Assembly (NCBI GenBank): GCA_043228905.1
Contig: JBHGNT010000006.1
Location: forward strand, 21,824,001 to 21,888,000
Origin: Azolla caroliniana
Lineage: Eukaryota; Plantae; Polypodiophyta
Length of the DNA stretch: 64,000 nucleotides
Direction of reading: 5' to 3'
Below, one piece after another: positions 12,301 through 63,455 of the stretch; the first letter of the stretch is position 1; the number at the start of each line of letters is the position of its first letter. The translations under genes were made by a program, and so were the position numbers. The notes under the pieces are model-generated. The model was not told the DNA's origin, searched no databases, and saw only the letters and a list, made by a program, of their open reading frames with translations.

Positions 12301-13020
12301 TCAATATCGATGCATGTAGTGCATGGAGTTTCAATTTTCTCAACCATAGGAGCCACACCTTCATGCATATATAACCTTTGTACATAGTCTAGCATCTCTT
12401 CATTTGTAAAGTGACCTTTCACATCTTCTTTCTTACCCTTGAGTTGTCCCCATGCTAATTTTGGTTTGAGCTTAAACAAGTTTTTCTTTTTCATCTCTTG
12501 CATTTGGAAATATCTTCTTTTCTTTCTCCTCGCTACTTTCTTGTATATGTGCCATGCAACAATCTTTTCATTCCCCCCTTCTATGAACTTAAACCATTTG
12601 AGATACATCTTTACATTCATCGTCGAACCAAGAATTACATGGAAAACTACACACCTTATGCCCACCCACATGTCTCTTAAAGCATTGATATCCAACCTTA
12701 AGAATTATATCCTTCAAATGTTGCCAATTTTCTTTAACATCATTGCTTAGAGAAAAATTTAACAAATGGTTCTCCACTTCATTTGCATACATCTTAGCTT
12801 TTTCGTAGCAAGGTCGGCAATGTGCTATAAAGACAAATAAGTACATGACAAAAATGACAACTAGATCTCGTTTGATGTAATCCCTAAGAAGCCTAAAATC
12901 TTCTTAATTCATCAACATCTCACCGACCAACTTGCCATGTCGGTAACTACCACCAACATCCTGTACGGACAGCAAAAAATGAGTCTAAAAAATTCCTCTC
13001 CACAACAACATCACTTATCC
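9310..13020. repeat. ~503-bp tandem duplication with internal CTTCAACCCCCACACCATC sub-repeats; second unit split by an RTE LINE
   Basis: 9381 aligns to 9885 and 9718 aligns to 10221. Sequence from 12816 onward continues the alignment to ~9730-9885. Confidence 0.8.
10237..12815 (-). mobile_element. 5'-truncated RTE-clade LINE with (TTCTAA)n tail
   Basis: NYRTIMV, QAGFRP, FVDFKKAFDTVP, GVKQGCPLSPTLFG, LLYADD, FKYLG and CKVC...EDECHFLFTC. ATTAGAATTAGAATTAGAA at the left end is the reverse complement of the tail. Confidence 0.9.
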
Positions 13021-13044: not shown

Positions 13045-15817
13045 CATGTTCTTTGTACTAAAGATGGTGCAGACGGTGTTGGTGGCAGAAACAACCAACA
13101 AGGTGGTACGTAATTCCACTTGACATCTATGGCTTCATTCAACATAATAGGAATAGATGACCAAACTCTAGGAATTCTCATTCTTTTCTTATTAGGTGTG
13201 TGTCTAGGACCCTAACAACTATCATAATCACTTTTAATTGTATGTACCAATAAGTCCCAAAAAAACTTAACCTAATCCACGATGTGAATGTTTTCATCAT
13301 TGTATATCTTGGAACACCTAGCTTGATTCCTTGCAAGGAGCTTGAAGAAGAGTATACCTGCAAACTTCTCACATGTAACGTCAAGGAAGAATAATGATGA
13401 TGATAAAAAGTCATTTGTTGATCCAACCTTCCCCAGAAGACTACACCCCACATGAAAATCGTCGACCTATACTTACTACCTAGTAGCCGAAGAATTCGAA
13501 ACCTTCTTTTTTTTTGTGACAGCACATTCCCAAAATACATGATGTAATGACTCATGTACAAAACCACACATAACACATGACTGATCAATCACATATTCCC
13601 TCAATAAATCACCTACTGGCAACGCATAATGAAATTTCATCAACCAATGAAAGTGTAATATCTTGTGCATACATTTAGTTGACCAAAACTATTTTCAAAA
13701 CATCAGCATATGAGAAGATGAGACATTACCTTCCTCCCAATACTTTTTTCTAGCAGGTACTGACTCAGTTTGACTCAACATAAAGTTTCTCCCAAACGCC
13801 ACCGAATATGTAGAGAATGGGAGGACCTTAGTGGAATTATTAGGCATGGACAATTTCCAACCATAATCTGTTGGATCCCACTGCAGATCAGCAAGTGGCC
13901 TAGACTGTAAAACCCAAATATGATATGAATAGTTAGCAATTAAGGGATTAGGGTCAATAAATAATTTTTTATCCAATCTAGCAATTACTCGCACTGGTAA
14001 CTGCTTTGCAACGGACATAATTGGAGACTCATCATCTACTAATACCAACCTACCATTATCCAAAACTTCATAAAAATAGAGGTTGCCATTTTGATGATAT
14101 AAACAAGCTCCTATAAGTATATTAAGTGTCAAAAATATATCGTACCAACTCTGAAAATGATTGAACTGCAACGATGGCACTATGACCTGATACACCATGG
14201 ACAATTGAGATACCATTATGTTTGCCCCTCTTAAGTTAGACAACCTATTCTTTTGGTCCTACGCTGAAGTTTGCAAAAACTTTATCCAATCCGCAATCAT
14301 ACGGGCTGGACCATTGTCCATTGCAGCCCAAGATAACTTAGGGCGTAGACCCAAAACACATGCAGCTTCATCCGTAAATAAAGGGTTCCATATCAAAGGG
14401 TGACGCATGAATTGAGGATAAGTTTTCGGTGGCAAGAAAACAAGTGCTTGACGAAGACTTTCCCATGCCCGAATTATTCCATAAAAGAAACGTAATGATC
14501 CAACATTGGACTTAGGTAATGTAAAATCTGCATTGAAGAACCATCTAAGACGATCATTCCATTGACCACCTACTGATGGCTTGACCTTATGTAAATGCTG
14601 AATCCATAGCTTTTTCCATAACTCGTCTCTTGGCAATAAACTCCTAACAACATGTTTAGAAAGTAAGGCTTTACTTTGCATAAAAGGATCAATCAAACCT
14701 AGACCTCCTTTCTGCTTAGATTGTATAAGAACCAACCAAGCTACCTTTGCTACTGAATTGTCTGAAGCGGTGTTCCCCCAAATAAAATTTCATACTAGAC
14801 GTTGAACTTTAAGCATTATTGTCCTTGAAAACAGCCATGTAGATGCTATATACCAAATCGAGGAGAAAAGCACCGAATTAGCTACAACTATATGTCCTGC
14901 CAAGGATAGCTTTTCCTTATTCCAGTATTTTAGCTTATTCCTTAATCTTAACAACAAGGATGCAACCATATCCTCTGCCTTTAATCCCAAACCCACCCTA
15001 CAGCCTAATTACCTAATGGACTGACCTTGAGGTATCCAGGTGAATCCTAAAGAATGTACATTAACTGGCGGATCTCCCGAAGCAACCCAAAAACCTGATG
15101 ATGTATCCCAATTTATCAATGCACCCGATGAATCTGAGAAATCATCCACAGCCTTTTGCACCTGTGCCAAAGTTAATTGTGAGGCCTGAACATATAAAGT
15201 TGTATCATCAGCAAACTCATTATCCACGCTAGCATACGACACTGGTAGTGCAAACCCTTTAATATTTACATATTGAGAATTTAGATGTACAGAAAATGCT
15301 TCATATACTAGTAAAAATAGGAAAGGAGCAAGTGGACATCCTTGTCATACTGATCTTGAGAGTTATACGCATTACGATATAATATTGATACTCCTCGTAT
15401 CCATATGTTTGGGAAATCCATCCTAACCAATGTTCCCTCCGTAAAATCCCAATCCACTCTGTCATAAGCCTTTTCAAAATCAAGAAATAACACCGTTAGG
15501 TCTTGCTTATGCAATTCAGCAAAGCCATCCATTTCCCAAAAGAGAATAATATTATCAAAAATTCTTCGCTCTTGCATAAAACCAATCTAAGAATCATGAA
15601 TCAACTCCGAAGGATAAGGTTGTAACCGTCTAGCTATCGTTTTTGCTAATATTTTATAAATAACATTCAGCAAGATAATTGGTCTCCAATGTTGAAGCTC
15701 TTCTAATTGTCCACTTGTTTTAGGAATCATATAAATTAAACCCTCCTTCCATTCTTGTGGCATATTTCCTGAGTCTAATATCTGTTGATAGGCTTTGGTC
15801 AAACTGTCACCTATCAA
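13045..15817 (-). pseudogene. L1-type ORF2 (RT plus zinc-finger region), frameshifted
   Basis: Chain of minus-strand ORF fragments with L1 RT motifs. Confidence 0.85.
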
Positions 15818-21350: not shown

Positions 21351-22562
21351 TTATGACATGTTGCCAAGAAAGGGGCTTAAAACTACCAACCTACTATAGA
21401 TATCCAAAAGAACATTTCTACTAGTGACAAGAACTTTGAACATATCTTCCACATGAACCTCTAAAGATGATAAGCTAGAATCTAGTGCTACTACTAATTT
21501 GCGAAGCAGTTTGGCCGATTTTTGGATGTCAGAGAGATCATGGAATTTCTTGGCACTCAAAGATTTCTCTATTTTGTCTTTCAATGACCTTACGGCCATA
21601 TCGATGTCAATGAGTTCATCGAGACCCATGCCATTTGGTTTCTTTTTATCTATCTCTTCTTTTACTCTATGTTGCAAGGAGTTGAATGAAGATGCCCAAG
21701 CAAAGTGTCCATCTACGGAGATGGACGAGCTCGAAGGGCGTCCCCCCGGACATTGCTTTGGCAACAATGTGGACGTCAACACCCCAGATGTGAACATGGC
21801 GATTACTTGTGCGGCATAGCTAACACTAAAGAAACTCCCCTTATGAGATGAAAAATCTTCCGAATCTTGCAAATGAAGTCTATCTCCCATTCTCCTAAGC
21901 ATCGATTTCGTGCTATCGAGTCGCCCCAGTCGCCGACTCATATATCTTCGACAAGGGTCCTCAACCAACCTCATCTTCATCATAGTGTCTTTGCACTTCT
22001 CAAGTTCAAGGTTAGCGCGTCTAAGTTGTGCTTCTCCTATGTAAGGTTTGTCCAAGGCAAGGAGGGCGAGCTCGACATGATGTTTTTGATAAGCCCGGAT
22101 TCCATGGGTCGCATCTCTCAACGAGGCGCATACGTCGAGGAGCTTGACATTGTCATCTAAGTATTGGTGGAGCCATTTGGTGTCTCCATGTGAAAGGGCA
22201 TGTTGAAGGTCAGGTAAGAAGGCCTCCGCAGAGGCATGTGTGGAAATGACAATTTGGATGGCATGGCATAGCCAAGGGACATTGGTGATGCTGAAATCGT
22301 GGTTGTGTGTAGTACTAGGTAATGTACCATCAAAGGAAGGGCAACATTGGAGGTCATGGAGTTGGAAGGAAAGGTTAGATTCAAAGGCAATTAGGTCAGG
22401 GTCACATGGTTTGCTAACAATGTCCTTGGTGCCATGAGTGTGACCATGAGTACTAGGGTTAAGTATATGAGTATTAGGGTTAAGTAAAGAATTATGAAAT
22501 GTCCTTAAACTTATGGAATGAAGGGCTGCACCCAGGGTTGCAAAGAGGGATGAACTACTCAT
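21351..22562 (-). CDS. BYPASS1-like / DUF793 family protein (403 aa, intronless)
   Basis: Long clean ORF with WLHQYLDDNVKLLDVC, QLRRA, a WA-S motif and a C-terminal LE-HVEDMFKVLVTSRNVLLD, which match the BPS1/DUF793 pattern as recalled. No database search was run. Confidence 0.8.
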   Translation of the reverse strand: MSSSSLFATLGAALHSISLRTFHNSLLNPNTHILNPSTHGHTHGTKDIVSKPCDPDLIAFESNLSFQLHDLQCCPSFDGTLPSTTHNHDFSITNVPWLCHAIQIVISTHASAEAFLPDLQHALSHGDTKWLHQYLDDNVKLLDVCASLRDATHGIRAYQKHHVELALLALDKPYIGEAQLRRANLELEKCKDTMMKMRLVEDPCRRYMSRRLGRLDSTKSMLRRMGDRLHLQDSEDFSSHKGSFFSVSYAAQVIAMFTSGVLTSTLLPKQCPGGRPSSSSISVDGHFAWASSFNSLQHRVKEEIDKKKPNGMGLDELIDIDMAVRSLKDKIEKSLSAKKFHDLSDIQKSAKLLRKLVVALDSSLSSLEVHVEDMFKVLVTSRNVLLDIYSRLVVLSPFLGNMS

Positions 22563-22812
22563 CTCTCTGTCTTTTTTTCTCTTTTTTAATTTTGTAAAAA
22601 ATTGTTTTGGTCACTGTAATTAGCAGACAAAGAACCCACTATGGCGCATTAATCAGAGGAGATGAACCCACTATGAAGAGATTTCTACTTCTGCTATATT
22701 TGATCTAGAGGAGATGAACCCACTATAATAGTTGAGCAAAAAAAACTGAGAAGAACCCAAAGCTCTTAATTGGAATTGAGTTCCCATGGAGAAGAAACCT
22801 AAACAAACACTC

Positions 22813-27031: not shown

Positions 27032-28010
27032 AGCTTGTCTTTCCAATCACAAGTACAATAAATGTGTTATATGCCGCTTAGACGGCGAAAAGAGACCATA
27101 TTGTGCATTTGAGGACACATGAAATCCTGGAAAAATTAAGTCTTGTATCCTTAAGAAATAAATTCTCAACACTTTGGTGACATTGGTTATTCTCTATGGG
27201 GTGGACGTATGGAGCGGGTAAGTCTATTTGGAAAGAGACTAAAAATGTCAAGAAACATTTTCTTATAATGTTCCTATTGATGACACCATCCTACTCGATA
27301 GGGGATCACTTCAAATTGAGATCATGGCCATGGAAAAGGTTGTTAAAAACATGCTTAAGGTTTTTAAAATAAAAATCCACATTGACTTCCTAGAATCTCA
27401 TGGGAAGCAAGCAAAAAAATCTAAAAGACACATGTAAAAGCAAAAACGTTTGTTCTAATTTGATGCAAGATATAAAAAATTGGTTTGGAAGATGGGATGC
27501 AACACACATTCAATAGATTCTTCTATAAATGAGACCTTGCAACAACAATGTATCAAACCAACATGGGGAAAAATGTGGAGTCTCATGCTTCACACATTAT
27601 ATTACATATGCTAAACCTAAATACAAAACCATATTCTTTGCCAAATGGGGAAAACACACAAACCAATGCATGTTAGAGTTCATCTCGTTGTCTATCATCA
27701 AAACAATTGCTTCCATGTGACTTTGATATGAGTCGAGTAGTTGGGCACAATTGATTAGAGTAGTAAACTTTGCACACATTTCCATAAACAAGTTCAGGAG
27801 TTTAATAATCACGCTTTGATACAATGCTCTCTTTGCCTTTGATCATATTCAACTATGCTTTCCACGCATTTTCTACGAAACCCAATCCTTGCATGAATTT
27901 CTCTCACAATCACGGTGTGCATCAATTGCAACATTCACAGTAAAGTTCATGAACATTAACAATCACTACTCACTTTCATATTTGACCTCCAAAGATGATA
28001 ATATGATCTC
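27028..28010 (+). mobile_element. Old degenerate 3' portion of the same RTE family as 2372-4052
   Basis: Shares ATTGAGATCATGGCCATGGAAA, GACTTCCTAGAAT, GATGGGATGCAA and CCCAATCCTTGCA with 2990-4052. Confidence 0.8.
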
Positions 28011-34758: not shown

Positions 34759-34785
34759 GGCTAAGGCCCCTCAATTTCCTTTAAC

Positions 34786-35718
34786 ATGAGTAGTAGCTCA
34801 ACCATTAATTTTGCTTCTCTAATTGGTGGTTCCTTCCATAGCTCCTCTTACTTCTTCCCTCAACTCTACAAGGAGCCATTCATGAATATCCCAAAGCACA
34901 TCAATCAATGTTCGAATGGGCAATTAGCTCATAACCAACATTACTATATGATGGATGAGTTCACTATATTCAAGCTCCTTGACATATGCTACAATTTGCG
35001 AGATTCGATTGATGAAATCCAACAATATCATAAGCATGTAGAACTAGCCCTCTTTGTCCTAGATAATGCTAATTACACTGGGGAGACACAACTTAGAAGG
35101 GCTCAAAATGAGCTCCACAAGTGCAAATTTGATCAACTAGAGTCTAAGTTAAACAAAAAAAGTTTGACTCGAAGAAAGCTTGAGCATTTCACATCGATAA
35201 TGAAGAAAGGCCCAATATTGCAAGGACACAAGAAATTTGGAGAGAAAAAGAATCTCTTGATTAAAGATCAAGATTTAGACTCCAAGAGAAACTTTGTTAT
35301 GATCAAATATATCGGGCAATGGATGTCCATGTTCACACTCTCATCAATATGGTCATCTGGAAGACGATTTCAACAACACAAGATGAAGACAAAAGGTAGA
35401 CCAAATGCACTCCTCATAGAATGGAAGCATACAAAGGTGATTGTAAGGTCTTTGCAAGCAAAGATAGATGAAATTCTGACCATTAACGCTAAGAAGACAA
35501 GAGCATCTTCTACTATTACACTTCATCATGCATTAAAGCCAGGCCTCCGAGATTTGTCTGAATCACTACGAGTTTGTTGTTGGGGTTTGACCTCTAGCCT
35601 TGCCACACTAAAATCTCATGTTGAAAGTATAATCAAGGCTCTTATAACAAATAGAATGGTCCTTCTAGATGTGCATAGCCACACTACAAACAAGAGCAAT
35701 ATACATTTTGTAATATAA
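34786..35718 (+). CDS. Divergent, shortened BPS1/DUF793-like paralog (310 aa)
   Basis: Aligns by eye to the 403-aa protein: KLLDICYNLRD...HVELALFVLD...GETQLRRAQNELHKCK versus KLLDVCASLRD...HVELALLALD...GEAQLRRANLELEKCK. The N- and C-termini are also similar. Confidence 0.75.
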   Translation: MSSSSTINFASLIGGSFHSSSYFFPQLYKEPFMNIPKHINQCSNGQLAHNQHYYMMDEFTIFKLLDICYNLRDSIDEIQQYHKHVELALFVLDNANYTGETQLRRAQNELHKCKFDQLESKLNKKSLTRRKLEHFTSIMKKGPILQGHKKFGEKKNLLIKDQDLDSKRNFVMIKYIGQWMSMFTLSSIWSSGRRFQQHKMKTKGRPNALLIEWKHTKVIVRSLQAKIDEILTINAKKTRASSTITLHHALKPGLRDLSESLRVCCWGLTSSLATLKSHVESIIKALITNRMVLLDVHSHTTNKSNIHFVI

Positions 35719-37201: not shown

Positions 37202-38161
37202 TCAGACCATAAAATTTTCATCATAAACATTATAAGTTGTTATCATAAGAATAACGCACAAAATATATGAAAATTGACAATGTCTTAATTAGTGTTTTAA
37301 CAACAAATTTCGTTTGTTTTGTGTTCACATGAGTGTTGGCCCAAGGTATATTGAAGTTATCACATTTTAGTACTTTATCACATTCAAACAAACTATTACA
37401 AAGAATCAATAATATGGAGTATTGATCCTTCAAATGAGCTCATTTTATGAACATTATCATCAACATAATCTATGATTAACATCAAAACTATTGTCTATAC
37501 TATATATAGGATCGAGATTTATTCAATTCAAAAGTTTCAATTATGGCTATAAATATCATAAGAGAATAGATTTCAATAGTATGTGCAAAAGCGTGTGCGT
37601 AATAACTATATTCTTCAACAACCATAACGTAATAGGAGACACTTTAATTCCATTTATGAGCAACACTAAAAATGTATCACATTATGTATCAATTTTTAAG
37701 CCATCACTATGCAAGCGACTATGTGAGCCCTGGATCTGCAAGCAAGCCTTCAATGATAAGAGTGAGTTCTAGATTTTATATGTCCATAATTTGAACGAAG
37801 ACATTTATTATCAATGCTTCACTCTAGATCCGATTATATCATAACAACTTTCATGTATGTAATTGTCTACATTAACATATGTATACATATATAACATTCC
37901 CATAAATCTTGCATCTACAATCATAGCATACACCCTTTATTTTCCACATTTACAACTTCCATTCATTAATATGAAATCTACGTCTTCGTTGTGCTATAAA
38001 TGGTGATATAAATAATATGATGGTCGGCACAAGACGTTGCTCCGATTATGAATGATCAAATCAAGATATTATTTTACATCAATCTCATGGAAAGTTTTCT
38101 TCGCCCATGTTTAGTTGTATTTAAGAACAACTATAGTACAATTTCGAATGTGTTATATATG

Positions 38162-38638
38162 CACATTAAAGCTTCAATGATATCCAAATTTCCCAATCTA
38201 ACAATTGACAATAATCATATCGCGTGTTAGTTAGGAATTTGAGCTAAAGTTATTATGACTTTAAGAAATCTCAATCAACAATTTATTAATGCCAGTGATC
38301 ATTTTCCTTGATACATTCACATTAAACCTTCAATTATCTCCAAATTTCCCAATCTAACAATTGACAATACTCATATCGCATATTAGTTAGGACATTGAGC
38401 TAAAGTCATTATGACTTTAAGATATCTACCATCTTAAACAATTTATTAATGCCAGTGATCATTTTCCTTGATACATTCGCATTAAAGCTTCAATTATCTC
38501 CAAATTTCCCAATCTAACAATTGACAATAATCATATTGTGTGTTAGTTAGGACTTTGAGGTAAAGTCATTATGACTTTAGGAAATCTACAATCTCAAACT
38601 ATTTATTTATGTTATAACCATTTTCCTTGAGTCATTCA
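38162..38638. repeat. ~158-bp tandem repeat, 3 copies
   Basis: Units start at 38162, 38318 and 38478 and share CCAAATTTCCCAATCTAACAATTGACAATA. Confidence 0.9.
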
Positions 38639-46952: not shown

Positions 46953-47025
46953 GCCTTTATAGCTCAATTGTAGAGCATTAGTCTTGTAAACAAAAAGGCC
47001 TTGAGGTCAATCCTCAATGAGGGCA
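46953..47025 (+). pseudogene. tRNA-Thr(UGU) pseudogene, copy 4
   Basis: Anticodon stem and T-loop are mutated (GGTCAATC), with a 1-nt insertion. Confidence 0.75.
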
Positions 47026-47361
47026 TCACTTGTTGCGTGTTTCTCAAAACAACAAGTCGAAGGTTTTAAACATATGAAAGGAACTAACACGGAAATATTG
47101 CTCAGCCACAACAGAGTCTTCAATCACTTTAATGAGAATCAAACACAAAAATGGGAAGTAGGGAGTGAGCGCACAATGAGAGGAAACACAGAGGCATTAT
47201 TTGTTGCATGTTTCTCAAAACAACAAGTCGAAGGTTTTAAACATCTGAAAGGAACTAACACGGAAATATTGCTCAGCCACAACAGAGTCTTCAATCACTT
47301 TAATGAGAATCAAACACAGAAATGGGAAGTAGGGAGCGAGCGCACAATGAGAGGAAATACA
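47020..47361. repeat. 171-bp tandem duplication spanning the tRNA-array/LTR junction
   Basis: 47031 aligns to 47202 and 47075 aligns to 47246. Confidence 0.9.
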
Positions 47362-49484: not shown

Positions 49485-49939
49485 TGTTACGGGCATGACC
49501 ATATAATATCCCGTGGTAAGAATTTACCGTAGTATTCTATACACGTGGATAAGTGTGAGGGTTAAATGAGAGTGTAAAGAAGGGGAGGATTACTTTTAAT
49601 CCTCGGGATTGAGACAACCCATTAGGTCAAGTGTGAACTTGCCTGGGGGCCTTGGGTTTCGCTATAAATAAGAGGCCTAGCTACCCTCATTTGATCATCT
49701 TTTGACTATATCGAGACTCTGCTCGTGTGGTGGGTCAACTCTTGTAGCGAGCGCGCCAGCACCAGGTACGACTCGACGCCACGGCGGTGGTATGGGACGC
49801 CGATCGAGGCTCGAGTCCGTCTCGATCCCTTCGCTCGGGGGTGGTCGGGTGGATCGACACCCTTCTTTCTCTTTCTCCTTTCTATCTTTCATTTCTTTAT
49901 CCTTATCTTAAGCTTACTTTAGTACCTAGATCTATAATA
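49485..49939 (+). repeat. Gypsy 5' LTR (TATA at 49663-49670)
   Basis: Direct repeat of 56024-56478. Confidence 0.95.
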
Positions 49940-50196
49940 TTTGGTATCAGATTTGTGTACTAATGTTTCTTTGTTTTTCATTTGTCTTTTGATTGATGCT
50001 GATCGATCGTTGTGCGGTTGGCCTTGATCCAGACAACGATCAACAAAGAACTTCGGTAACTCTTTCCATAATTTTTCTTTCTATTCTCTCTTCTCCCATC
50101 TAATCATGTGTTTAGTTTATATGTAATTTTTTTCATTAAGTCAATGATGTTGTAGTGGTCTTTAATTGATTATCTAAAACGTTTACATATGTGCAC

Positions 50197-50420
50197 GAGG
50201 TCAATACCTCGTTTGACATATTAATAATATGTGATGAGTGTCGTATGCGTACGAGGTTAATACCTCAATTATGTATTACGTTTGCGTATGAGTTTAATAC
50301 CTTGATTTGTTGTAAACGATATGCGTTTGGTCTCGTATGCGTAAGAGGTCAATACCTCCATTGCGTATTACGATGATCTCTTATTTGTGGATGTTTCGTG
50401 TGCGTAGAGGTATATACCTC
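50197..50420 (+). repeat. Five GAGGT-N4-ACCTC hairpin repeats in the gypsy leader
   Basis: Copies at 50197, 50253, 50290 (degenerate), 50345 and 50407. Confidence 0.8.
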
Positions 50421-51603
50421 GATTACGTATCTCGATCACATCATTTGTGGCTATTTACTATAACGATATGTTTAATATAGGCATATGTGGTCACATATAT
50501 AAGTATTTGATCGTATATATGTGATAAGTAAACATATGTGTATATTCGTTATTACGTGATTATATCGAAAGTTGTCATGGTCGGGAAAAGGATGTTGGTG
50601 GCCGTCCTCACATTTTTGTGAGAATGGCGTTGTCACCATCCCTTTTTCAACATTTTTTTATTGTTGATAACCCCGTTGACGACCTCGATTTCGTTACGTA
50701 AAGAAACGCCAATAGCCAAAATGATGTTGAGTACGTAGGGCTTGACCCACTTCAAGTGAGGTCGCTCCAATGACGCACGTATCCAACATCCCTCCCTCGT
50801 TACATGGATACGATGCCACCATGAGCTCGTTCTTACGAGAGGCATTCGTAATGACGTGACCATGTGATGGCCCACGTGAGCCTACAACGAAACAAGGGCT
50901 CATTTGGCTTGACCATTAGGTTGCACTTTGGCGTATGCCATCGTAATTACGAGACTTGAGGTTAGGTAACGTACCAACATAGTTTTGGTAAATGAGGGCG
51001 CAATAAGGACCCTTGACATATATGTTCTTTTAAAAAACCATATATGATCAATTGCCTCGCATATCTCTTATACGCATCAAACATTAAGCATTCGAGAAGC
51101 TTACTTGGTTGGCTTAAGTGTTTAATGTATTTGTTCTCGAGGTCTCGAGTTCAAATATGACCAAGACCATACAACATCCTTGATACATATGACTATAACA
51201 CATGTTTAGACTTAAGGTCTAAGTGCACCTCGGGGTCCTCGTAATAGGACTTAAAGAGCCGAAACCACATATGTGGGCACCGAAACATAGTTTATTATTA
51301 ACATTTTTTTCGTGTATAAACTATTCATGACGCGAACATACATGGTTGAGCCTCGGGGAGCCACCATGAAAAAATCGATATAGAGATCAGGGAAAGACAT
51401 TTATTTGTCACCCCCATGGTTTTTAAAACACCTTTGTGTTACCATAGTAACCTGATCTTGAACCTCATCTCATACGTCTAGAGGGGTATTGACGTGAGAT
51501 AATGATATCGATTAATGCTCGCCCATGATATGTTTACATCCCGACATGATGTTATGACTATATCTCTGACCTTATCCTATTTCTTTTCCAGAAATAATCT
51601 TTA

Positions 51604-54600
51604 ATGGCTCAAATTAACGACCCGATGTCATCCGCTCAAGCGGAAGGAACTCAAGGGAATCCTCCTGGACAAATGTCCACTGAGATGTATTTGGCACAAA
51701 TAACCCAATACCTTAGTTTCACCGCTCAACAGATGACCGAACTTCGGCAATCTCAGAGTGCTCTTGAGGCACGTGTCATTAGTCTACAACGTGAGACTAA
51801 TAGACCTGATGAGCGACAAGGTGAACCATCATTTGTCGTTAAGCCATTTACGGGAGACAAAAAGGAAAGAACCGAAGAAGCAATCTGCACATGGCTAGGA
51901 CGATGGGAGTCTCATTTTGAGCTCTATCCCACGCCAGATAGTACGAAGATTGCATATGTCGGCCGAGAACTCGGGGGTAAGGCTGCCGCCTGGTGGCGTG
52001 GCCTCCGTACTATGGGGAAATTGCCCGATACCTGGACAGATTTTGTCACGATTTTTAAGGGCCAATTTCTGCAACCTCCCTCTCGAACCGAGGCAACACA
52101 AGCTTTAATGAACCTCTCTAGCAGGAAATTTTCCTCGCTAGAAGACTATGTTCACCATGCTAGAACCCAAATCCAAAAATCGGGTCTAGAAGGGGACAAT
52201 TGGTTGATAGCTTGTTTTGTCAATGGCATCCCCAATTCGGACTATCACTGGATGGTGCACGATAAGGATCCAAAATCCTTCGAAGAGGCCGTTGAAATAG
52301 TTCTTCGCTATCAACGCACTTCGAAGAAGGACCATAACAAACCCAACGAAGCGCCCGGGACTAAGCAGTCGCAATTTGTTGGGAAACGCAAGACACCCAA
52401 CGAATTCCTGGATCGCGATTGTAAGCGACAACATCCTTTTTGTGTATTCTGCAAAAAGAAGGGTCATACAAAAGATCAATGTCGAAAGCTCCAACGGAAA
52501 GAGCACGACAACAAAGCTAAAGCTGCAGACCATAAAGGTCAGATTCCTAATGTCCTTCAGGTCTATACACATCATTTAAGTAATTGTCAATGTTCTTTCC
52601 CTCACTATGTATTGGGTCCCAATGATTTACTACGTGCAAACGGGTATATCAATGGATCTCCCGTACAATTTTTATTTGATTCGGGAAGCTCACACAATTT
52701 TGTGAATGATCGTTTGGTTCAGATATGGGGAATCCAACCCACCGTAAGTGATCACACCTACACGGTGCACTTGGCTGATGGAAGAGTACAATACATCAAC
52801 GGGGCGATTCATTCATTAGGAATTTCTATTGATACTTATATAGAGGAAGTAGACTTCCATGTAATGAATCTTTGTACCACCGATGTAATACTGGGTTATC
52901 CCTGGTTTTATAATAAAAACTCTTCTTTATTGATTGATTGGGTTCGTCATTTCATTTCTTTTGTACTGAACGATTGTACGCAGTTTATTCAATGTGTAAA
53001 AAAACAATCCCTCTCGATTGTTTCCTCGTGTCCATCAATATCCGAGTTGTCTTGTTCTACGTTATTTTATTGTGTACTTGATCCGGACATTCACGTTTAC
53101 AATATCGATAATGTCCCGATTCAATTAACATATTTTGAACAACAACAACTTGATGAAATCTTAAATGATTTTCATGATGTTTTTCCAAGTGAACTACCTG
53201 ATGGGTTACCTCCTAAACGTAATATAGACCATCGTATAGATATTGTACCTGGTGTTGCACCAATAAGTATACCTCCGTATCGCTTAAGTCGATCCGAAGA
53301 AGATGAGGTATCTAAGCAACTCAAGGACTATTTACGAATGGGTTATATACGTTATAGTAAATCTCCATGGGGTGCACCAGTTCTCTTGGTTAAAAAGAAA
53401 GAGGGCACATGGCGTATGTGTATTAATTACCGACGCTTGAATAAAGTGACGATCAAGAATTCGTATCCATTGCCCCGGGCTGACGATCTAATTGACCGTC
53501 TCCAGGGAGCTCGGTATTTTACGAAACTTGATCTCCGTACTGGCTACCATCAAATACGAATAAGTGAGGACGATGTTCCTAAAACGGCATTTCGTACGCG
53601 CTATGGCCATTACAAGTTTTTGGTTATGCCTTTTGGTTTGACCAATGCTCCGGCTACTTTTCAACAAGAAATGAATGACATTTTCCGAGAACAACTTGGA
53701 AAATTTGTCGTTATTTTCTTGGATGATATTTTAGTTTATAGCCGTACATTACAAGAACATGCTAGACATGTCCGCTTTGTTTTACAAACATTGCGTGACA
53801 AACAGTTTTATGCGAAGATCTCAAAATGTGAGTTCTTCAAGAAATCAATTACTTATCTAGGACATCTCATAACCGAACGAGGAGTTGAAATTGATCCTTC
53901 TCGCATTGAGAAAATCAAGCTTTGGCCCACTCTTCGGAATATTCGAGAAGTTCGATCATTCCTTGGTTTTGTGGGGTTTTTGCGAAAGTCTCTTCGTAAT
54001 TACTCCCAATTGACGACGCCGTTTACTGATCTTTTAAAAGGTCAAACGCGTAAGTCTACAAAACCTATTGTGTGGAATGCTACACTAGACCTTGCCTTTA
54101 AGGAACTCAAGGACCTGGTTTGCAAGGCTCCTTCACTTCTTTTACCCGATCCTTCAAAACCTTTTGAGGTTGAAACCGATGCAAGCGATTATGCTATAGG
54201 TGTTGTCTTGTATCAAGATGGTAAACCAATAGCATTCGAGAGTAAGAAACTTGATTCTGCTCAATGTCGGTATACCGTTCAAGAAAAGGAATTATTTGCA
54301 GTTATACATGCGCTCAAAACATGGCGCCATTATCTTTATGGAAATCACTTTGTGGTAACTACGGACCACGAGCCCTTGAAATATTTTTGTGACCAACAAG
54401 ACCTGAAAGGTCGTAAGGCACGATGCGCTGATCTCATCCAGGACTTTGATTTTTCCATACGATATCGTAAAGGTTCCATGAATACTGTCGCTGATGCACT
54501 AAGTCGCATCCGTGAAGTTAACATGCTTAGCTTCACTGCAATATCATCAGATCTTTATGATCACCTTCGAGGAAAGTATCCTGATGACAGTTATTTCGCA

Positions 54601-56037
54601 AAATACTGGGCAAGAGTTGAGTCTGGAACAGACACCACCACATCCTCGAAGGAATACTTCCACATTGCTAACGGTTTGCTCTACCGTAATGGGAAGGTTT
54701 GTGTTCTAGATTTACCCGAGGTCAAAAAGAGGATTCTTTTTTAATGCCATGATGCACCCTCAGCAGGGCACCCTGGAATACATCGTACACTCGTTCTCAT
54801 CTCCACTCAATTTTATTGGCCTAAGATGCGTCCTGACATACATAGCTATGTGACTAAATGTCACCAGTGTCAGGTTAACAAAGCCGAGCGACTTAAAGCC
54901 GCAGGACTTTTACATCCCCTGGACATTCCCAATAATAAGTGGGAAAGTATATCCATGGATTTTATTGTTAGCCTTCCTCGCACCCAAAAAGGTCATGATG
55001 CCATCTGGGTTGTCGTTGATCGACTAACTAAAATGGCCAGATTTATTGCTACTAAAACCACGGTAATAGCTCCTGAATTGGCTTACCAATTCGTTGACGA
55101 ATTGTTTCGTTTTTATGGGTTACCGATGGATATCGTGAGTGATCGAGATCCAAAGTTTACTAGTGACTTCTGGACACAAGTCTTTAAGAAGTTAGAAACT
55201 ACGTTGAGCATGAGCTCCACGGATCATCCTCAATCCGATGGACAAACAGAACGAGTAAATCAAATTATTGAGGACATGCTTCGAGCATACGTTGGTGCAA
55301 AACCAACAAAATGGGAACGTTATCTCCCAATTTTGGAGTTTGCTTATAACAGCTCCAAGCATACGTCGACGGGATATAGTCCTTTTATGTTGATGTATGG
55401 TTTTCAGCCACGAGCCCCGATTGATGTTACTATACATCATGATGAGTTGCGAAGTACGCAAAACTTTCTTCGGGATATGCAAGATATGTTGCATATTGCA
55501 CGAGATAATATAAAAACAGCTCAAGATAGAGCGCGTTTTTATGCCGATCATCATAGGCAACCTCGTGTATTCAACCCTGGACAGAAGGTATTTTTACGTG
55601 TACCTCACAATTCTAAGACATTGTCTACAGGTAAGTGCGCTAAGTTAGCCCCACGGTTTTGTGGACCTTTTACAGTCCTCAAACGAATTGGGTCATCAGC
55701 CTATCGTCTCGCTCTTCCCGATGGTGTCGGAATTCATCCAGTCTTTCATGTGAGTCGTCTAAAAGAACTTCTAGGTTCTGGCGACAATACAGTTACGACT
55801 GAAACTCTGGTTACTTCTGAAGAATTATCTTCTAAACCACATGTACCAGAAAGAATTCTCGATGTTAAAACAAAAAAATTACGTACTAAAGAAATCCGAG
55901 AATTCAAAATAAAATGGATGGATAAATCAATAAAAGATGCCACATGGGAACGCGAAAATACTCTTAGAACTAACTTCCCTAACTTTCCATTGCAAGAGTG
56001 CAATGTTTTAAAGAGGGGGAGTATGTTACGGGCATGA
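51604..56037 (+). pseudogene. Gypsy gag-pol (gag, CCHC, protease, RT, RNase H, integrase, chromodomain) with one in-frame stop at 54742-54744
   Basis: [51 protein letters not shown]...CHQC, SDRDPKF, GPF and PERIL...KW...ATWE. ORFs 51604 and 54826 are in the same frame. Confidence 0.95.
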
Positions 56038-56478
56038 CCATATAATATCCCATGGTAAGAATTTACCGTAGTATTCTATACACGTGGATAAGTGTGAGGG
56101 TTAAATGAGAGTGTAAAGAAGGGGAGGATTACTTTTAATCCTCGGGATTGAGACAACCCATTAGGTCAAGTGTGAACTTGCCTGGGGGCCTTGGGTTTCG
56201 CTATAAATAAGAGGCCTAGCTACCCTCATTTGATCATCTTTTGACTACATCGAGACTCTGCTCGTGTGGTGGGTCAACTCTTGTAGCGAGCGCGCCAGCA
56301 CCAGGTACGACTCGACGCTACGGCGGTGGTATGGGACGCCGATCGAGGCTCGAGTCCGTCTCGATCCCTTCGCTCGGGGGTGGTCGGGTGGATCGGCACC
56401 CTTCTTTCTCTTTCTCCTTTCTATCTTTCATTTCTTTATCCTTATCTTAAGCTTACTTTAGTACCTAGATCTATAATA
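56024..56478 (+). repeat. Gypsy 3' LTR
   Basis: Direct repeat of 49485-49939. Confidence 0.95.
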
Positions 56479-57588: not shown

Positions 57589-58139
57589 TGTTGTAGGTTT
57601 TAGGGTTAGGGTTAATGGTAATGATGATCATCGATGACGAAGATAGAAATGGTGGAATAGTGAAGATGGTGGAGAGAATGATGGTGAGAGAGATTGAGAT
57701 GAAGATATTGAGAATCATTGAGAAGCATTGTGGGGTAAGGATGACATTGATGAGCATTGTGGGTGGGGGGTGGTGCCTAGAATGACTCCACCCCCCTCCC
57801 AAGGGGGTTCAACGTTAAGGGGAGAGAGAAGAAGAGAGATGACAAGAGAGAGAGAGATTGAGAGAGAAAAATGTTCATTCATCTTTCATTCATTCCCCAT
57901 AAGGGGTTAAATAGTACAAGAGGGGGTAGATACATAGGGGTGTAAGCCCCCTCGAGCATTCATACTGGACACTCACTCACACCTCCTCGTATCCATCCAC
58001 ATGCACACACGTGTGCATGTGTTCACATACGTATAGACTCACAACTATATTTATACCCCCTACACATACACAACATCATGATAACATTCGACCCTCGCTC
58101 ATCACACTTGACTCTCCGTACATCTCGTACGGGGTAACA
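57589..58139 (-). mobile_element. Solo LTR (551 bp) with 5-bp TSD
   Basis: TG...AACA flanked by AGTCG at 57584-57588 and 58140-58144. Homologous to 62967-63455. Confidence 0.9.
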
Positions 58140-58230
58140 AGTCGAATCAGACATCGACTTATGGTACAAGCGGATAGGCCACGTCAACTACCAGCGGCTT
58201 CAAGACCTGCAATCGAAACAAGTTGTGTTC

Positions 58231-61200
58231 AACACCGGGACATTTGAAACAGGTAATATGTCGCATTTTGAGAACTGTCCATCAAAAAATGACACAAATT
58301 AGGGTGATTCACAAAAAGGGGTGCCGCATGCGTAAAGGAATTTTAACAATGACCCAAAAATATATTGATTTTTAACATGTACGGAAATTTAGGTGTTCAA
58401 AAAAATGCCTAAATAATGGACATGCCAAACTTACAAATGAATGTCCAAAATGACTAACCCCAATATTTATAGAAATTCTGAATCCAAATCTTGATGTGCA
58501 ATACAATATTTATAGTTAACGTATCAGGACAATCATTTTTCAAGTTTATGTCATCATCTTCATACCCATTAGATGAACTAGTACGAGTTTATGAGGTCTC
58601 ATCCTCATCATCAATGGCAACTAATGCATTGTGTTGATCCAATTGCAATCCAACCTCATCGAGTTTATGAGTCATGCTTCTTGTTTGTCTTTGTGTTGTG
58701 TCTAAAGCCACATTCCAGATCCTCTTTTAGTATCTTCATTGTGGTCTGTCACAGATAACTTGTTTTGGTCAAAGATAAGTCATACACTAATATATAAACA
58801 TTATCCAATGTAAGAGTAGATGTGCTTGATGCATCTTTCCTCCTCACTTTTTGGTTATGATATTTTATTATAGACTTTCCATTTACAAGATTAGATTATG
58901 TGAGAGAAGCTTTCTACCAAAATCATTAGAATCTAAAAAATGTCTTAAAGATGTTTTCCATTTTTCTTAGATTCTCATAGTAAGCCTTTGATGTCGTATA
59001 GAAATCCGATTCATTCCATCTAGATTTGATGCAACATTTCGAATTTTACTCTATACATCTAGAATTGGATATAATGCATCAGATTCCTATAAGTCTTGGA
59101 ATTTTTTTTAACATTTCCATTAAAAAAATACTCTTGCATTTTAATGCATTGCATTGAATTCTAGCTACATAGACTAAAATATGATACATTGCATGGATTT
59201 CCCGAAAATACATAAATAAATACAAATTGAAAAAATAAAACATTTTCCCATAAATAAATAAATAAACATTTTTTATTTTACTCGTAAATAAATAAATAAA
59301 AATTGAAAAATTAGATTTCAATGGAAATCCAATTCCGTGCATCGGATTCAATTGAAAATCCAATTTCTCTTATTTTTTTGAAAATTTTCTTATTTTTTGA
59401 ATTGTTTTTGAATTTGTTTTTATTTTTCCCATAAAAAAATAAATAAAAATGGAAAAAACGGATTTTCAACGGAAATCCGATGCACTGCATCGGATTTTGG
59501 TTGAAAGTCCACTTTTACATATTTTTTTCAAAATTTGCTTTTTTTTTGAAGTTTTTTGAATGTTTTCTATAAAAAATAAATAAATATTGAAAAAATAGAT
59601 TTTCAATGGAACTCCGATGCACTGCATCGGATTTCCATAGAAAATCCACGTTTTCTTATTTTTTTCCAAATTTTCATAGTTTTTAGAATTTTTTGGGTAT
59701 TTTGTTTGTCTATTTTCTCATAAATAACTATATAGAAATTGAAAAAATGAATTTTCAAAGGAAATCCGATGCATTGCATCAGATTTCTATTGAAAGTCCA
59801 CTTTTTGCTATTTGTTACCAAATTTTCATATTTTAAAATATTTTTTGTATTTTTTAAATTTGTTTTCATTTTTTCCCATAAATAAATAAATAAAAATTGC
59901 AAAAAATGGGTTTTCAACAGAAATCCGATGCACTACATCGGATTTCTATTGAAAATCCATTTTGTCTTATTTGTTTCCAATTTTTCAGATATTTTGAATT
60001 TGTTTTGAATTGTTTTTGTTTTTATCATAAATAAATATATAGGAATTGAAAAAAATGGATTTTCAACGGAAATCCGATGCACTGCATCAGATTTCCATTG
60101 AAAGTCCACTTTTTCTTGTTTGTTTACAAATTTTCTTATTTGTTTATATTTTTCTCTAAAAAAGTGTTAAAAATAAACAAATTGTGATTTTCTCCATTTA
60201 AAATGATGTGTTTTCAACGGGAATCCGATGCAATGCATCGGATTCCCGTTGAAAACACATCATTTTCAACAGGATTTTCAATGGAAATCCGATACAGTGC
60301 ATTGGATTTCCGTTCAAAATCACTGAGTTTCAACAGAAATCCGATGCAGTGCATCGGATTTCCGTTGAAAGTCCAATATTTTTCATATGTTTTTTCATAA
60401 AACATTAATTTGCAATTGAAATCCGACTTAATGGTTCAGATTTTGTTGAAAATGTAATATTTTTTTATTATCTCATTGTTTTATGAAAAACCTAAAAGAA
60501 ATTTGGATTTTTAATTGAAATTCAATGTAGTGCATTAGATTTCAGTTGGAAATCCACTTTTTTAATATATTTTTATTTATTTTTTGAAAAATTGAAAAAC
60601 AATTGAAAAGAAAGAGGATTGCCAGCTAAAATCTGATGCAATGCATCAATGTCTAGCTGTATAGACTACGATCTGATGTAGTGTATCGGATTTCAGTTGA
60701 GAAGCCGTTTATTATTATTTTATATGAAAAATAAATAAATAAATAATATTGGAAAAAGAAAAAAGAAAAATGGATTTTCGACTCTAATCCAACGCATTGC
60801 ATTAGATTCTAGCTATATATACTAAAATATAATGTAGTGCATAGTATTTTAGCTGAAAATCCATTTTTTATTTTTTAATGGAAAAAATTTTAAAAATTAC
60901 AAAAAAAAAAACTTGGATTTTCAACTGAAATCTAGTGCATCGCATTGGATTCCAATTAAAAATCCAAGATTTTTTATTTTTTCAAATTTTATTGTTTCAA
61001 ATTTTCAATGGGTTTTAGATTAGTTTTCTGACACAGGTATATAATATAAAACTTACATCAATTTAGATTAACGTTATATTCTATTCTTCAGTTTGATGTT
61101 ACCTGTGCAATTTCATTCTACTGTCATGTACTACTAAAACATACGCCTTAAAGATTATCAGGAACTCTGTTGCATTAGAGAAGGACCTTGAGCAAGTTAA

Positions 61201-62147
61201 TGTCATCAAAATGAGTATCCAAGGCATCTGGGGTTGTCCTGATCAAGACCAAGAAGTTGGGGCAAAGCATATCAATAAAACTTAGATGTTCCAGATGACT
61301 TTTAGAAAACTTGTGGAACTATAGATGAAGACGCAGGGCAACTTGTTGAATTAGAAGACGTTTCAGAGTCTGAACATACTAACAATTTAACTTAGCGTAC
61401 TGATGAAGCCAATGAGGACAATCCTGATGAAAGAGCTAATCCTGAGTAGACGGCTTTACCAGACTTATTATTCGATTGAATGATTATGGCTTATTGTAAA
61501 TTTTGAACAATATGAATTGTTAAATTTTGACGTAATATATAAGTTGAGCTTACTTATAATTTTCGTGTAACAATCATTGAACTTAGAAATTAAGTATACT
61601 TGTATGTGTACATGTTATCTAAACTCTCCTTTATCATTTGGGGTATATCGGAGATAAGTTTATACTCTATCATTTACTCGTATGATTGGAATGTTATTGT
61701 AGACTAGTTTATTTATACATTGACAGTGTCATGTATCACGTGTCAATGGAAATTTTCTCTTGACATAGTAGTATCTCTTAATTGCAAGGTTCACAATTTG
61801 CTTTAAGATGTATTATATTTAAATATACACACATAATTAGAAGAAGTCACTTATTCAATGGGGCATGCTTTTTAGAATATGCACAAGGACCCGTGTTACT
61901 ATTATACTTGTGTTGACAAATACACCCCTGTCTAAGATTTGGACAAAAACATGGTAGATAGAATATACGTCGGAAGATTTTGTTGACGTGATATTAGTTA
62001 GTTCTTTTTTTCGCTATGTTTTCATAAACCACATACACATGCGCCATGCCTTGTTGAAATTCTGCTTAAATAAGGCATTTTTTAACATCTCACTAAGATA
62101 TGAAAAAGAGAATGCGACATATTACCTGTTTCAAATGACCCGGTGTT
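58231..62147. mobile_element. Non-autonomous TIR DNA transposon (37-bp TIRs), superfamily unassigned
   Basis: AACACCGGGACATTTGAAACAGGTAATATGTCGCATT (58231-58267) matches the reverse complement of 62111-62147 with 1 mismatch. GTTC is duplicated at both flanks. The copia frame is restored when the element is removed. Confidence 0.92.
58995..60970. repeat. Array of ~50-bp palindromes (GGATTTTCAACGGAAATCCGATGCA-N-TGCATCGGATTTCCGTTGAAAATCC) with AT-rich spacers
   Basis: Centres near 59336, 59485, 59622, 59774, 59933, 60082, 60233, 60297, 60349, 60530, 60641, 60681, 60797 and 60940, plus weaker copies. Confidence 0.92.
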
Positions 62148-62951
62148 GTTCGGATTGCCCAAATTTAGTGGCCGGAAGGCACAAATTTGTGAAGCCTGCC
62201 AGCTTGGGAAGCAACACCGACTTCCCTTCCCCAACGAGCGTAACCAGAGCCAGAACAAGCTCGACGTGATACACTCCGATGTGTGGGGGCCGGCGCAAAA
62301 CGTTAGTCTTGGCGGGAGCCGATATTTCGTCTCCTTCATCGACGACTACACGCGGCACACATGGATCTACCTCATCGAGAGGAAGAGCGAAGTCTTTGAC
62401 TGTTTCTGGGACCTCAAAGGGTTCGTGGAAACGGAAACAGGAAGAAAGATCAAGTGCCTACGGTCGGTTGGCGGAAAAGAATACTTTTCCAGTCAATTCA
62501 ACGGTTATCTACAACATATGGGAATTCGGCGGGAATTCAGTTGTAGATACACGCCGGAGCAAAACGTTGTGGAAGCGGCACGGGCAATGCTAGAGGAGAA
62601 GAGCTTGCCCAAATTCTACTGGGCTGAGGCGGTAAGGACCGCGGTATACATCCTGAACCGGATCGGAGACAAAGTGTCGGCGCACGAGCTATATTTCGGA
62701 ATAAAGCCGAACTTGCGACACTCGAAACACACACATTGTTGCTAACCGCTTTCAGAACCACGCACATTGACACCTTGACTAGCACAAAACGTTGTTTCCA
62801 TTTCTCGTCCACTCGCACATACTTTCGCCGAACATTGTCGTCGTCATTTGCACGTTTCCGCCATTTCTTGCACTTAGTTGCTATGGCTTGCCCATCCGCA
62901 TATCATTCTTCGACTTCATCTCCAAAGGGGGGTCACCTTAGTGGTCACGTT

Positions 62952-62966: not shown

Positions 62967-63455
62967 TGTTATTTGGTTTTAGGGTTAGGGTTAAGGACGA
63001 TGATAATCATGATAAAGATAGACATGGTGGTTATGATGATGATGGAGAGTATGGGATTGATGGCGAGAGAGATCATGTGCATTGAGAAACATTGCGGGGT
63101 GGGGGGTGGTGCCTAGAATGGCTCCACCCCCCTCCCAAGGGGATTCAACGTTGAGGGGGAGAGAGAGAGAGATTAAGAGAGAAATGTTCATTCATGTTTC
63201 ATTCATTCCCCATAAGGGGTTAAATAGTACAAGAGGGGGTAGATACATAGGGGTGTAAGCCCCCTCGAGCATTCATACTAGACACTCACTCACACCTCCT
63301 CGTATCCATCCACATGCACACACGTGTGCATGTGTTCACATACGTATAGCCTCACAATTACATTTATGTCCCCTACACATACACAACAACATCATGATAA
63401 CATTCGACCCTCGCTCATCACACTTGACTCTCCGTACATCTCGTACGGGGTAACA
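62967..63455 (-). mobile_element. LTR of the same family as the solo LTR, probably the 5' LTR of a truncated gypsy (Tat/Ogre-like PBS) element extending left to ~62720
   Basis: Near-identical to the right two-thirds of 57589-58139. TG...ACA ends, no TSD, adjacent PBS-like motif. Confidence 0.75.

What the first reader, a model, noticed from the sequence alone, without database searches (positions are those of the whole stretch)
58995..60970. Mirror-symmetric array of long palindromes at the centre of a TIR element
Seen: roughly 15-20 copies of a ~50-bp near-perfect palindrome. Left of centre they recur every 137-159 bp (centres 59336, 59485, 59622, 59774, 59933, 60082) with AT-rich spacers. 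At 60200-60266 there is a perfect palindrome with 33-bp arms and a 1-nt spacer, about 45 bp from the element midpoint (60189). Across it the orientation appears to flip: the central base is mostly C on the left (TGCA-C-TGCA) and G on the right, and the spacer at ~60551-60620 reads as the reverse complement of left-hand spacers. Inference: this is an organised structure rather than random satellite. It could be an array of dimeric protein (transposase) binding sites, a cruciform or origin-like module, a nucleosome-phased array, or a template for multi-hairpin RNA. I do not recognise it from a named plant TE family.
Basis: partly seen in the sequence, partly recalled or inferred. Interest (0 to 1): 0.8.

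Follow-up and report, generated by a model that had tools for sequence, protein, structure and literature searches.

The report
Gene-less transposon keeps helper docking sites
This is a multi-copy plant jumping gene that has lost nearly all of both its genes yet carries about 20 copies of the same 23-base palindrome found in its gene-carrying relative, and these likely act as docking sites for that relative's bacterial-type DNA-binding methylase, which would help the gene-less copies keep moving.

Summary
The array is real: 20 palindrome cores at 59014-60940, eight near-perfect. The mirror symmetry is mostly not: only one unit is clearly inverted. The element (58231-62147; 37-bp inverted ends; 4-bp target duplication) is a non-autonomous deletion derivative. 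Its arms are the 3' ends of a Sola-like transposase gene and of a ParB-fold/amino-methyltransferase gene; both genes were found in two related contigs (L003, L002). Those contigs carry an array with the same 23-bp core but unrelated, GC-richer 41/51-bp spacing. The gene-less form is multi-copy, occurs in four runs under four organism labels, and has a second, diverged subfamily with the same left junction. It lost about 3 kb on each side of an array yet carries one, so the sites probably work in cis, most likely as parS-like sites for the helper protein supplied in trans. Binding is untested. The design (ParB protein plus inverted-repeat array in a transposon) is published as a hypothesis for algae. 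This scan had already noted the gene-carrying family many times on other DNA of this genome; my look-ups found no note on this gene-less variant.

The parts
58227..58230 (.). left target-site duplication (GTTC)
   Evidence: same 4 bases at 62148-62151; empty-site contigs run from 58230 straight into the sequence at 62152 in 4 of 4 runs (63, 70, 19, 26 contigs)
58231..58267 (+). left terminal inverted repeat, 37 bp, starts AACAC
   Evidence: one mismatch to the right repeat; 32-60 contigs per run with unrelated flanks end here
58231..58850 (-). left arm: TIR, 3' region and broken last ~110 codons of the Sola-like transposase (residues 810-917 of the L003 ORF at 58853-58532)
   Evidence: 83% nucleotide identity to L003; tblastn 58-70%; closest to P0042/P0043
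58851..59000 (.). junction/filler with no homology to L002 or L003
   Evidence: alignment scores within shuffle range; same junction in L001 and L005 and in high-depth contigs of X5 and X12
59003..60951 (.). array of 20 palindromic cores, 23-bp site AATCCGATGCA-N-TGCATCGGATT, best preserved at 59485-60349, degenerate at both edges; spacers 16% GC
   Evidence: same 20 cores in L001
59270..60153 (+). tandem block of about six ~149-bp units in direct orientation
   Evidence: Tandem Repeats Finder period 149, 5.8 copies
60200..60266 (.). perfect palindrome, 33-bp arms, 1-nt spacer; one core with extended arms and a two-sided (compensated) change
60488..60609 (-). one unit inverted relative to the left block
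   Evidence: inverted score 49.3 against direct 29.5, shuffle maximum 22.9
61009..62147 (+). right arm: remnant of methyltransferase motif I, intron, broken last exon (61103-61476), 3' region and TIR of the ParB-fold/amino-methyltransferase gene
   Evidence: 76% and 80% nucleotide identity to L002 in two blocks, continuous alignment, tblastn 56-63%
62111..62147 (-). right terminal inverted repeat
   Evidence: 36 of 37 identical to the L002 end
62148..62151 (.). right target-site duplication (GTTC)

Best explanation
58231-62147 is a non-autonomous, multi-copy deletion derivative of a Sola-like DNA transposon; it keeps only the 3' ends of the transposase and ParB-fold/methyltransferase genes, and its palindrome array likely is a set of parS-like binding sites for the ParB-methyltransferase protein supplied in trans by gene-carrying copies. 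Shown: the ends, the duplication, the gene remnants, the shared 23-bp core, many copies. Inferred: a dimer of the helper protein binds each palindrome, writes N6-methyladenine or N4-methylcytosine and/or spreads from the array, and keeps the element's ends open to the transposase against host cytosine methylation. Copies with the array would then transpose more, which would explain why a form with no gene to express still carries it. The array grew by tandem duplication plus at least one local inversion; the 33-bp palindrome and the partial flip are likely by-products of fold-back copying.
For: A search with the palindrome alone returned 5 loci; 4 belong to this family. L001 is 97.2% identical over 58231-61714 with another flank; L005 is 82% over 58722-59897; L003 holds a 923-aa DUF7869 ORF (E 1e-49) and L002 a spliced gene with an N6_N4_Mtase exon (E 2.4e-9). 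The large L002 exon folds as ParB/Noc (Foldseek best E 3e-5, 12 matches at E<=0.001; VIA-align Z 9.8, rmsd 2.8, 100 aligned, to PadC) and has a helical part like the KorB DNA-binding domain (Z 5.2, rmsd 4.2, 111 aligned). Between the window array and the L002/L003 array, half-site positions 1-11 match at 0.82-1.00 (mean 0.93) and positions 12-30 at a mean of 0.31: the sequence is kept, not only a hairpin. Among five left units the inner core is 93.6% identical (206 of 220) against 82.4% for spacers (777 of 943), although cores hold most CG/CHG sites (6.3 and 6.9 per 100 bases against 1.0 and 0.5). All 5 inner-core differences between the window and L001 are window departures from the palindrome, 4 of them C>T/G>A, so the inserted copy is decaying. 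About 2.9 kb and 3.2 kb of the relative are missing on the two sides of the array. In X5, contigs with 0-3 differences cover arm, junction and array at similar depth (1175-1894, against 18-26 for divergent contigs). Tandem inverted repeats beside ParB-like genes are reported for red-algal Plavaka elements (10.1101/2025.02.11.637652, section 8 read).
Against: No binding, methylation or transposition data. L001-L005 were found with the core itself, so the core match is ascertained and other subfamilies may differ. The middle 58851-61008 shares nothing with L002/L003 except the cores, so the true parent, possibly one with an AT-rich array, was not found. I could not count derivatives that lack the array, which is the needed control. 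The helical spacing of the relative (41, 51, 71 bp) is absent here. L005 has one unit fewer and one core deleted; 12 of 20 cores are degenerate. The core-versus-spacer contrast within the array is modest, and outer arms (82.7%) are no better than spacers. The ParB-like domain reads GGSHS where CTP-binding ParBs have an arginine (motif recalled), so clamp sliding is doubtful. The DAM-retrotransposon preprint says streptophytes lack abundant 6mA (passage). L001 and L002/L003 are short-read contigs that may be collapsed or chimeric: window-L001 differences are 3.9% in the left arm and 0.7% in the right. L004 has two cores followed by unrelated sequence.
Confidence: 0.55

Rival explanations
1. The array is a neutral passenger. 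It survived a complex gap-repair deletion because hairpins cause template switches near them, grew by slippage, and stays palindromic through fold-back correction.
For: Unit number varies and a core is deleted in L005; edges are degenerate; outer arms stay palindromic with different sequences in the two arrays; the 33-bp palindrome carries a two-sided change; helical phasing is absent.
Against: Fold-back correction keeps symmetry, not sequence, yet the inner 11 bases are the same in both arrays while the flanks match at chance level. The CG/CHG-rich core is the best-conserved part among units. The junction plus array is shared by two subfamilies.
Confidence: 0.2
2. The palindromes are an internal enhancer bound by the transposase itself, which helps bring the two ends together.
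For: Non-autonomous elements are expected to keep what the transposase needs (general knowledge); the array lies near the middle of the element.
Against: The core matches the TIR at only 7 of 11 positions; no half-sites lie near the ends of L002, L003 or the window element; in red algae such arrays lie beside ParB-like genes in another superfamily.
Confidence: 0.15
3. The array works through structure or host factors: cruciforms in AT-rich DNA, nucleosome positioning at ~150 bp, or multi-hairpin RNA.
For: Arms of up to 33 bp fold stably (-38 kcal/mol as DNA); spacers are 16% GC; the left period is near 149 bp.
Against: The period holds for about six of 20 cores, and the relative uses 41-71 bp with GC-richer spacers. 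The inner core shows no family-level compensatory change.
Confidence: 0.1

Closest known systems
Sola1-1_Ec32 of Ectocarpus (PMC12477816; abstract, passages, one part of the reference list and supplement rows seen)
   Same: Sola element with a 4-bp duplication, termini starting AAC, and a ParB-like plus N4/N6-methyltransferase gene on the strand opposite to the transposase; self-modification proposed.
   Different: Brown alga, 21.5 kb, autonomous, 282-bp TIR. The word palindrome does not occur in the main text; no gene-less derivative with retained sites in the passages seen.
Plavaka (EnSpm) elements of Bostrychia with PAG2/PAG3 (10.1101/2025.02.11.637652; passages and section 8 read; supplements not seen)
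   Same: Tandem arrays of inverted repeats beside a ParB-like accessory gene, proposed as its binding sites.
   Different: Other superfamily; ParB-like domain fused to a 2OG oxygenase, methylase in a separate gene; 'non-autonomous' does not occur in the main text.
VANDAL/VANC anti-silencing system of Arabidopsis (PMC5735166; passages)
   Same: Element-encoded protein binds a short motif multiplied by tandem-repeat formation in non-coding parts and acts in trans, also on AT9TSD1 elements that carry the motif. Best working analogue.
   Different: MULE-type, non-palindromic 8-9-bp motifs, unrelated protein, effect shown by experiment.
Bacterial ParB/Noc with parS/NBS sites (fold matches; site biology recalled)
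   Same: Several copies of a palindromic site and a partner with the ParB fold plus a helical domain.
   Different: 23-bp odd-centred site, methyltransferase fusion, no ParA seen, CTP-binding arginine apparently absent.
DAM-carrying retrotransposons (10.64898/2026.05.21.726589; abstract and passages)
   Same: Eukaryotic mobile elements with a prokaryote-type amino-methyltransferase.
   Different: Retrotransposons; reported absent from streptophytes; ParB and Sola are not mentioned.

Membership tests
Sola (Sola1) DNA transposon | 4-bp target-site duplication | tested here: met
   GTTC on both sides; empty sites in 4 of 4 runs; 4 bp listed for Sola1-1_Ec32
Sola (Sola1) DNA transposon | terminal inverted repeats | tested here: met
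   37 bp, one mismatch
Sola (Sola1) DNA transposon | Sola1-type termini | tested here: inconclusive
   AACAC against AACCG in Sola1-1_Ec32, one reference only
Sola (Sola1) DNA transposon | transposase homologous to Sola1 with three acidic catalytic residues | tested here: inconclusive
   L003 ORF matches DUF7869 and has acidic motifs near residues 372, 453 and 492-495. No Sola reference protein was compared; the label comes from earlier notes and recall. The window copy lacks this domain.
non-autonomous deletion derivative | ends homologous to a gene-carrying element, genes lost | tested here: met
non-autonomous deletion derivative | amplified after the deletion | tested here: met
   L001 has another flank; L005 shares the left junction; junction contigs at high depth in X5 and X12. 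The right junction is seen only in the window and L001.
ParB-parS system | several palindromic sites | tested here: met
ParB-parS system | partner with ParB/Srx fold | tested here: met
   L002 exon model, mean pLDDT 79.7; top Foldseek rows are ParB and Noc
ParB-parS system | helix-turn-helix domain that reads the site | tested here: inconclusive
   Z 5.2 to the KorB DNA-binding domain, below the level the tool calls distinctive
ParB-parS system | CTP-binding GxxR arginine motif (recalled) | tested here: not met
   the matching loop reads GGSHS in L002 and has no arginine in the four homologues viewed
ParB-parS system | site-specific binding | not testable with these tools
   needs EMSA or DAP-seq
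VANDAL/VANC anti-silencing | [quoted passage not shown] | tested here: met
VANDAL/VANC anti-silencing | MULE element with a VANC protein | tested here: not met
   4-bp duplication, DUF7869 transposase, ParB-methyltransferase helper
VANDAL/VANC anti-silencing | sequence-specific loss of host methylation | not testable with these tools
   no methylome available
foldback element (two long mirror arms) | left half is the reverse complement of the right half | tested here: not met

The most novel reading that the evidence does not exclude
A eukaryotic parS-like loading station is required in cis for transposition itself. A gene-less parasite rebuilt its own array of the helper's 23-bp site in cytosine-poor DNA to recruit a transposon-encoded ParB-methyltransferase, which writes a bacterial-type methyl mark or bridges DNA and so licenses the ends for the transposase in a land plant.
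Probability: 0.3. Interest if true: 0.8.

Novelty: new variant of a known kind. Interest (0 to 1): 0.52.

Why it matters
ParB-methyltransferase cargo genes and neighbouring inverted-repeat arrays are described in algal transposons, but that the protein binds the array is only a proposal. A gene-less family has no transcript to protect. That it carries the same 23-bp site in otherwise unrelated DNA points to a role in mobilisation, narrows the target to 23 bases, and gives a natural 3.9-kb reporter for testing whether a land-plant transposon writes its own non-standard DNA mark. If true, it is also a compact protein-plus-site pair for targeted epigenome work.

Tried and rejected
A 2-bp TT or 3-bp duplication (EnSpm-like), my first reading, was dropped: the 4-bp one keeps symmetric ends and fits the empty sites. 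Global mirror symmetry: rejected. Helical phasing of the window array: not found. A separately inserted foldback module: no duplication seen by eye at the junctions; not tested further. No whole genome is held, so no census of copies. Reads were laid only on 57900-60540, so the copy number of the right junction is open; contig depth is only a rough hint of copy number. No RNA holder listed; this says nothing on expression. Ten of the 20 holding rows had under half of the words; I laid 4 of 23 runs. Viral contigs: 0 matches to the core and no relatives of either protein. Prokaryotic genomes: 11 single, unclustered matches, not followed. Rfam: 0 matches. Pfam did not name the ParB domain (only DUF6551, E 0.039). 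The class-wise window-L005 comparison is distorted by a unit shift and was not used. No stored protein matched L004. Look-ups of earlier notes by sequence, words, relatives and neighbourhood were empty. Paper searches (listings only) showed no report of a gene-less derivative with such an array or of this family in ferns; most subscription papers are not held. Two papers on Sola features were not held.

Full report
Observation. The array is real and far above chance. A core profile finds 18 cores in the whole window at a strict threshold, all between 59014 and 60940, and 20 at a looser one within the element. Eight are near-perfect. Eleven centres reach 19 of 25 complementary pairs, none outside the array exceeds 18, and shuffles give about one centre at 17. 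The left block is a tandem array of period 149. The 33-bp-arm palindrome at 60200-60266 is the longest perfect one in the window.

The mirror claim holds only locally. The central base is a pyrimidine in 8 of 10 left cores and a purine in 8 of 10 right cores (change-point p 0.05). One unit (60488-60609) is inverted, and its best partner places the axis at 60231, by a small margin. But only 3 of 10 left cores have a mirror partner about 60233, and three of six right-hand segments match the left better in direct orientation. A closely spaced core pair recurs in direct orientation on both sides (family D13). The nearness to the midpoint follows from two unequal arms.

The element. It runs 58231-62147, with 37-bp inverted ends and a 4-bp duplication, GTTC, inside a Copia integrase region. 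Contigs from 4 of 4 runs laid show the empty site and 32-60 different flanks at 58231; these counts include all relatives that share the end. My first reading was a 2-bp duplication; earlier notes naming Sola elements made me recheck.

The family. One scan of metagenome contigs with the palindrome gave five loci. L001 is a 97.2% copy of 58231-61714 at another site, with the same 20 cores. L005 is an 82% relative with the same left junction, one unit fewer and one core deleted. L003 holds the left TIR, a 923-aa DUF7869 ORF and 12 cores. L002 holds the right TIR, a spliced gene with an N6/N4-methyltransferase exon, and 4 cores. Both end in the same array and are probably two halves of one element of about 9 kb with divergent genes (inferred). 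L004 has two cores and then unrelated DNA. The large L002 exon folds as ParB/Noc with a following helical domain. It has 41 homologues, the named ones in Ceratopteris (70%), Adiantum (32-43%) and a Gb-labelled protein, Ginkgo by my recall (46%). The host is therefore likely a fern-like plant.

What the window copy kept. The left arm is the last ~110 codons, 3' region and TIR of the transposase gene. The right arm starts in methyltransferase motif I and runs through the last exon to the TIR. Both remnants are broken by stops and frameshifts. About 2.9 kb and 3.2 kb of the relative are missing on the two sides of the array. The 2.1 kb between the arms shares nothing with L002/L003 except the cores. 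In run X5, contigs with 0-3 differences cover arm, junction and array at depth 1175-1894, against 18-26 for divergent contigs; X12 has a junction contig at 928. This hints at tens of recent copies, but depth is not a copy number.

What is conserved. Between the two arrays, half-site positions 1-11 match at a mean of 0.93 and positions 12-30 at 0.31. The unit is a 23-bp site. The loci were found with that core, so this shows sharing with one relative, not with all subfamilies; that they carry the same ends and genes is independent. Within the array the core is better conserved than spacers (93.6% against 82.4%) although it holds most methylatable CG/CHG sites, and the window copy is losing core bases mainly by C>T/G>A. 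The relative spaces its sites mostly 41, 51 or 71 bp apart; the window array shows no helical phase.

Mechanism. Most likely (0.55) the sites recruit the ParB-methyltransferase in trans. A dimer would bind each palindrome, write N6-methyladenine or N4-methylcytosine or spread outward, and keep the ends accessible to the transposase. Every step after sequence conservation is inferred. The argument is that an element with no gene to express still carries the sites. Against: no control set of array-less derivatives, no true parent, degenerate edges, a lost core in L005, and no CTP-binding arginine. Rivals are a neutral, fold-back-maintained minisatellite (0.2), a transposase enhancer (0.15) and a structural or RNA role (0.1).

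Comparison. Sola1-1_Ec32 has the same gene pair and a 4-bp duplication (PMC12477816). Red-algal Plavaka elements have inverted-repeat arrays beside ParB-like genes, with binding proposed (10.1101/2025.02.11.637652; supplements not seen and may bear on non-autonomous forms). VANDAL/VANC is the tested analogue for a motif-guided helper acting in trans (PMC5735166). PMC4455052, PMC5751038 and PMC5199201 were seen as passages only and gave no usable Sola criteria. Sola membership rests on the duplication and ends; the transposase was not compared with a Sola reference. It works like parS/ParB in anatomy but fails the CTP-motif test. Six paper searches showed no report of this gene-less form. Earlier notes of this scan describe the gene-carrying family many times in this genome; they are unchecked and served as leads only.

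Verdict. A real, ordered array; not a mirror element. It is a new variant of a known kind: a gene-less member of a ParB-methyltransferase transposon family that carries the predicted target sites in new spacer DNA. Interest 0.52.

Noticed in passing
window 49485-56478: Gypsy element with a chromodomain integrase and 455-bp LTRs 99.1% identical, nested in the gag region of the Copia element that also holds this transposon.
   Followed up: partly
window 57596-58139 and 62975-63455: Two LTR-like repeats, 81% identical, on either side of the transposon; the Copia element is a nest of several insertions.
   Followed up: no
window 21351-22610 (-) and 34765-35718 (+): Two ROH1/BPS1-like plant genes facing away from each other.
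   Followed up: partly
window 2444-3989, 10611-12704, 13695-15344, 27038-27981: Several broken non-LTR retrotransposon reverse-transcriptase regions.
   Followed up: no
window 38155-38638 and 47022-47361: Tandem repeats of period 160 (3.1 copies) and 171 (2 copies), unrelated to the palindrome.
   Followed up: no
L002 4240-4525: Short degenerate A/C-rich tandem repeat between the array and the large ParB exon, possibly intron sequence.
   Followed up: no
L002 1-130: A second partial copy of the last methyltransferase exon lies just outside the TIR, suggesting insertion next to or into a relative.
   Followed up: no
L004 1-253: Two AT-rich-type cores followed by unrelated plant-like DNA; a truncated copy or an array outside the element.
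   Followed up: partly
L005 1-339: Flank encodes what looks like the C-terminus of a plant ABC-G transporter (label recalled, not searched).
   Followed up: no
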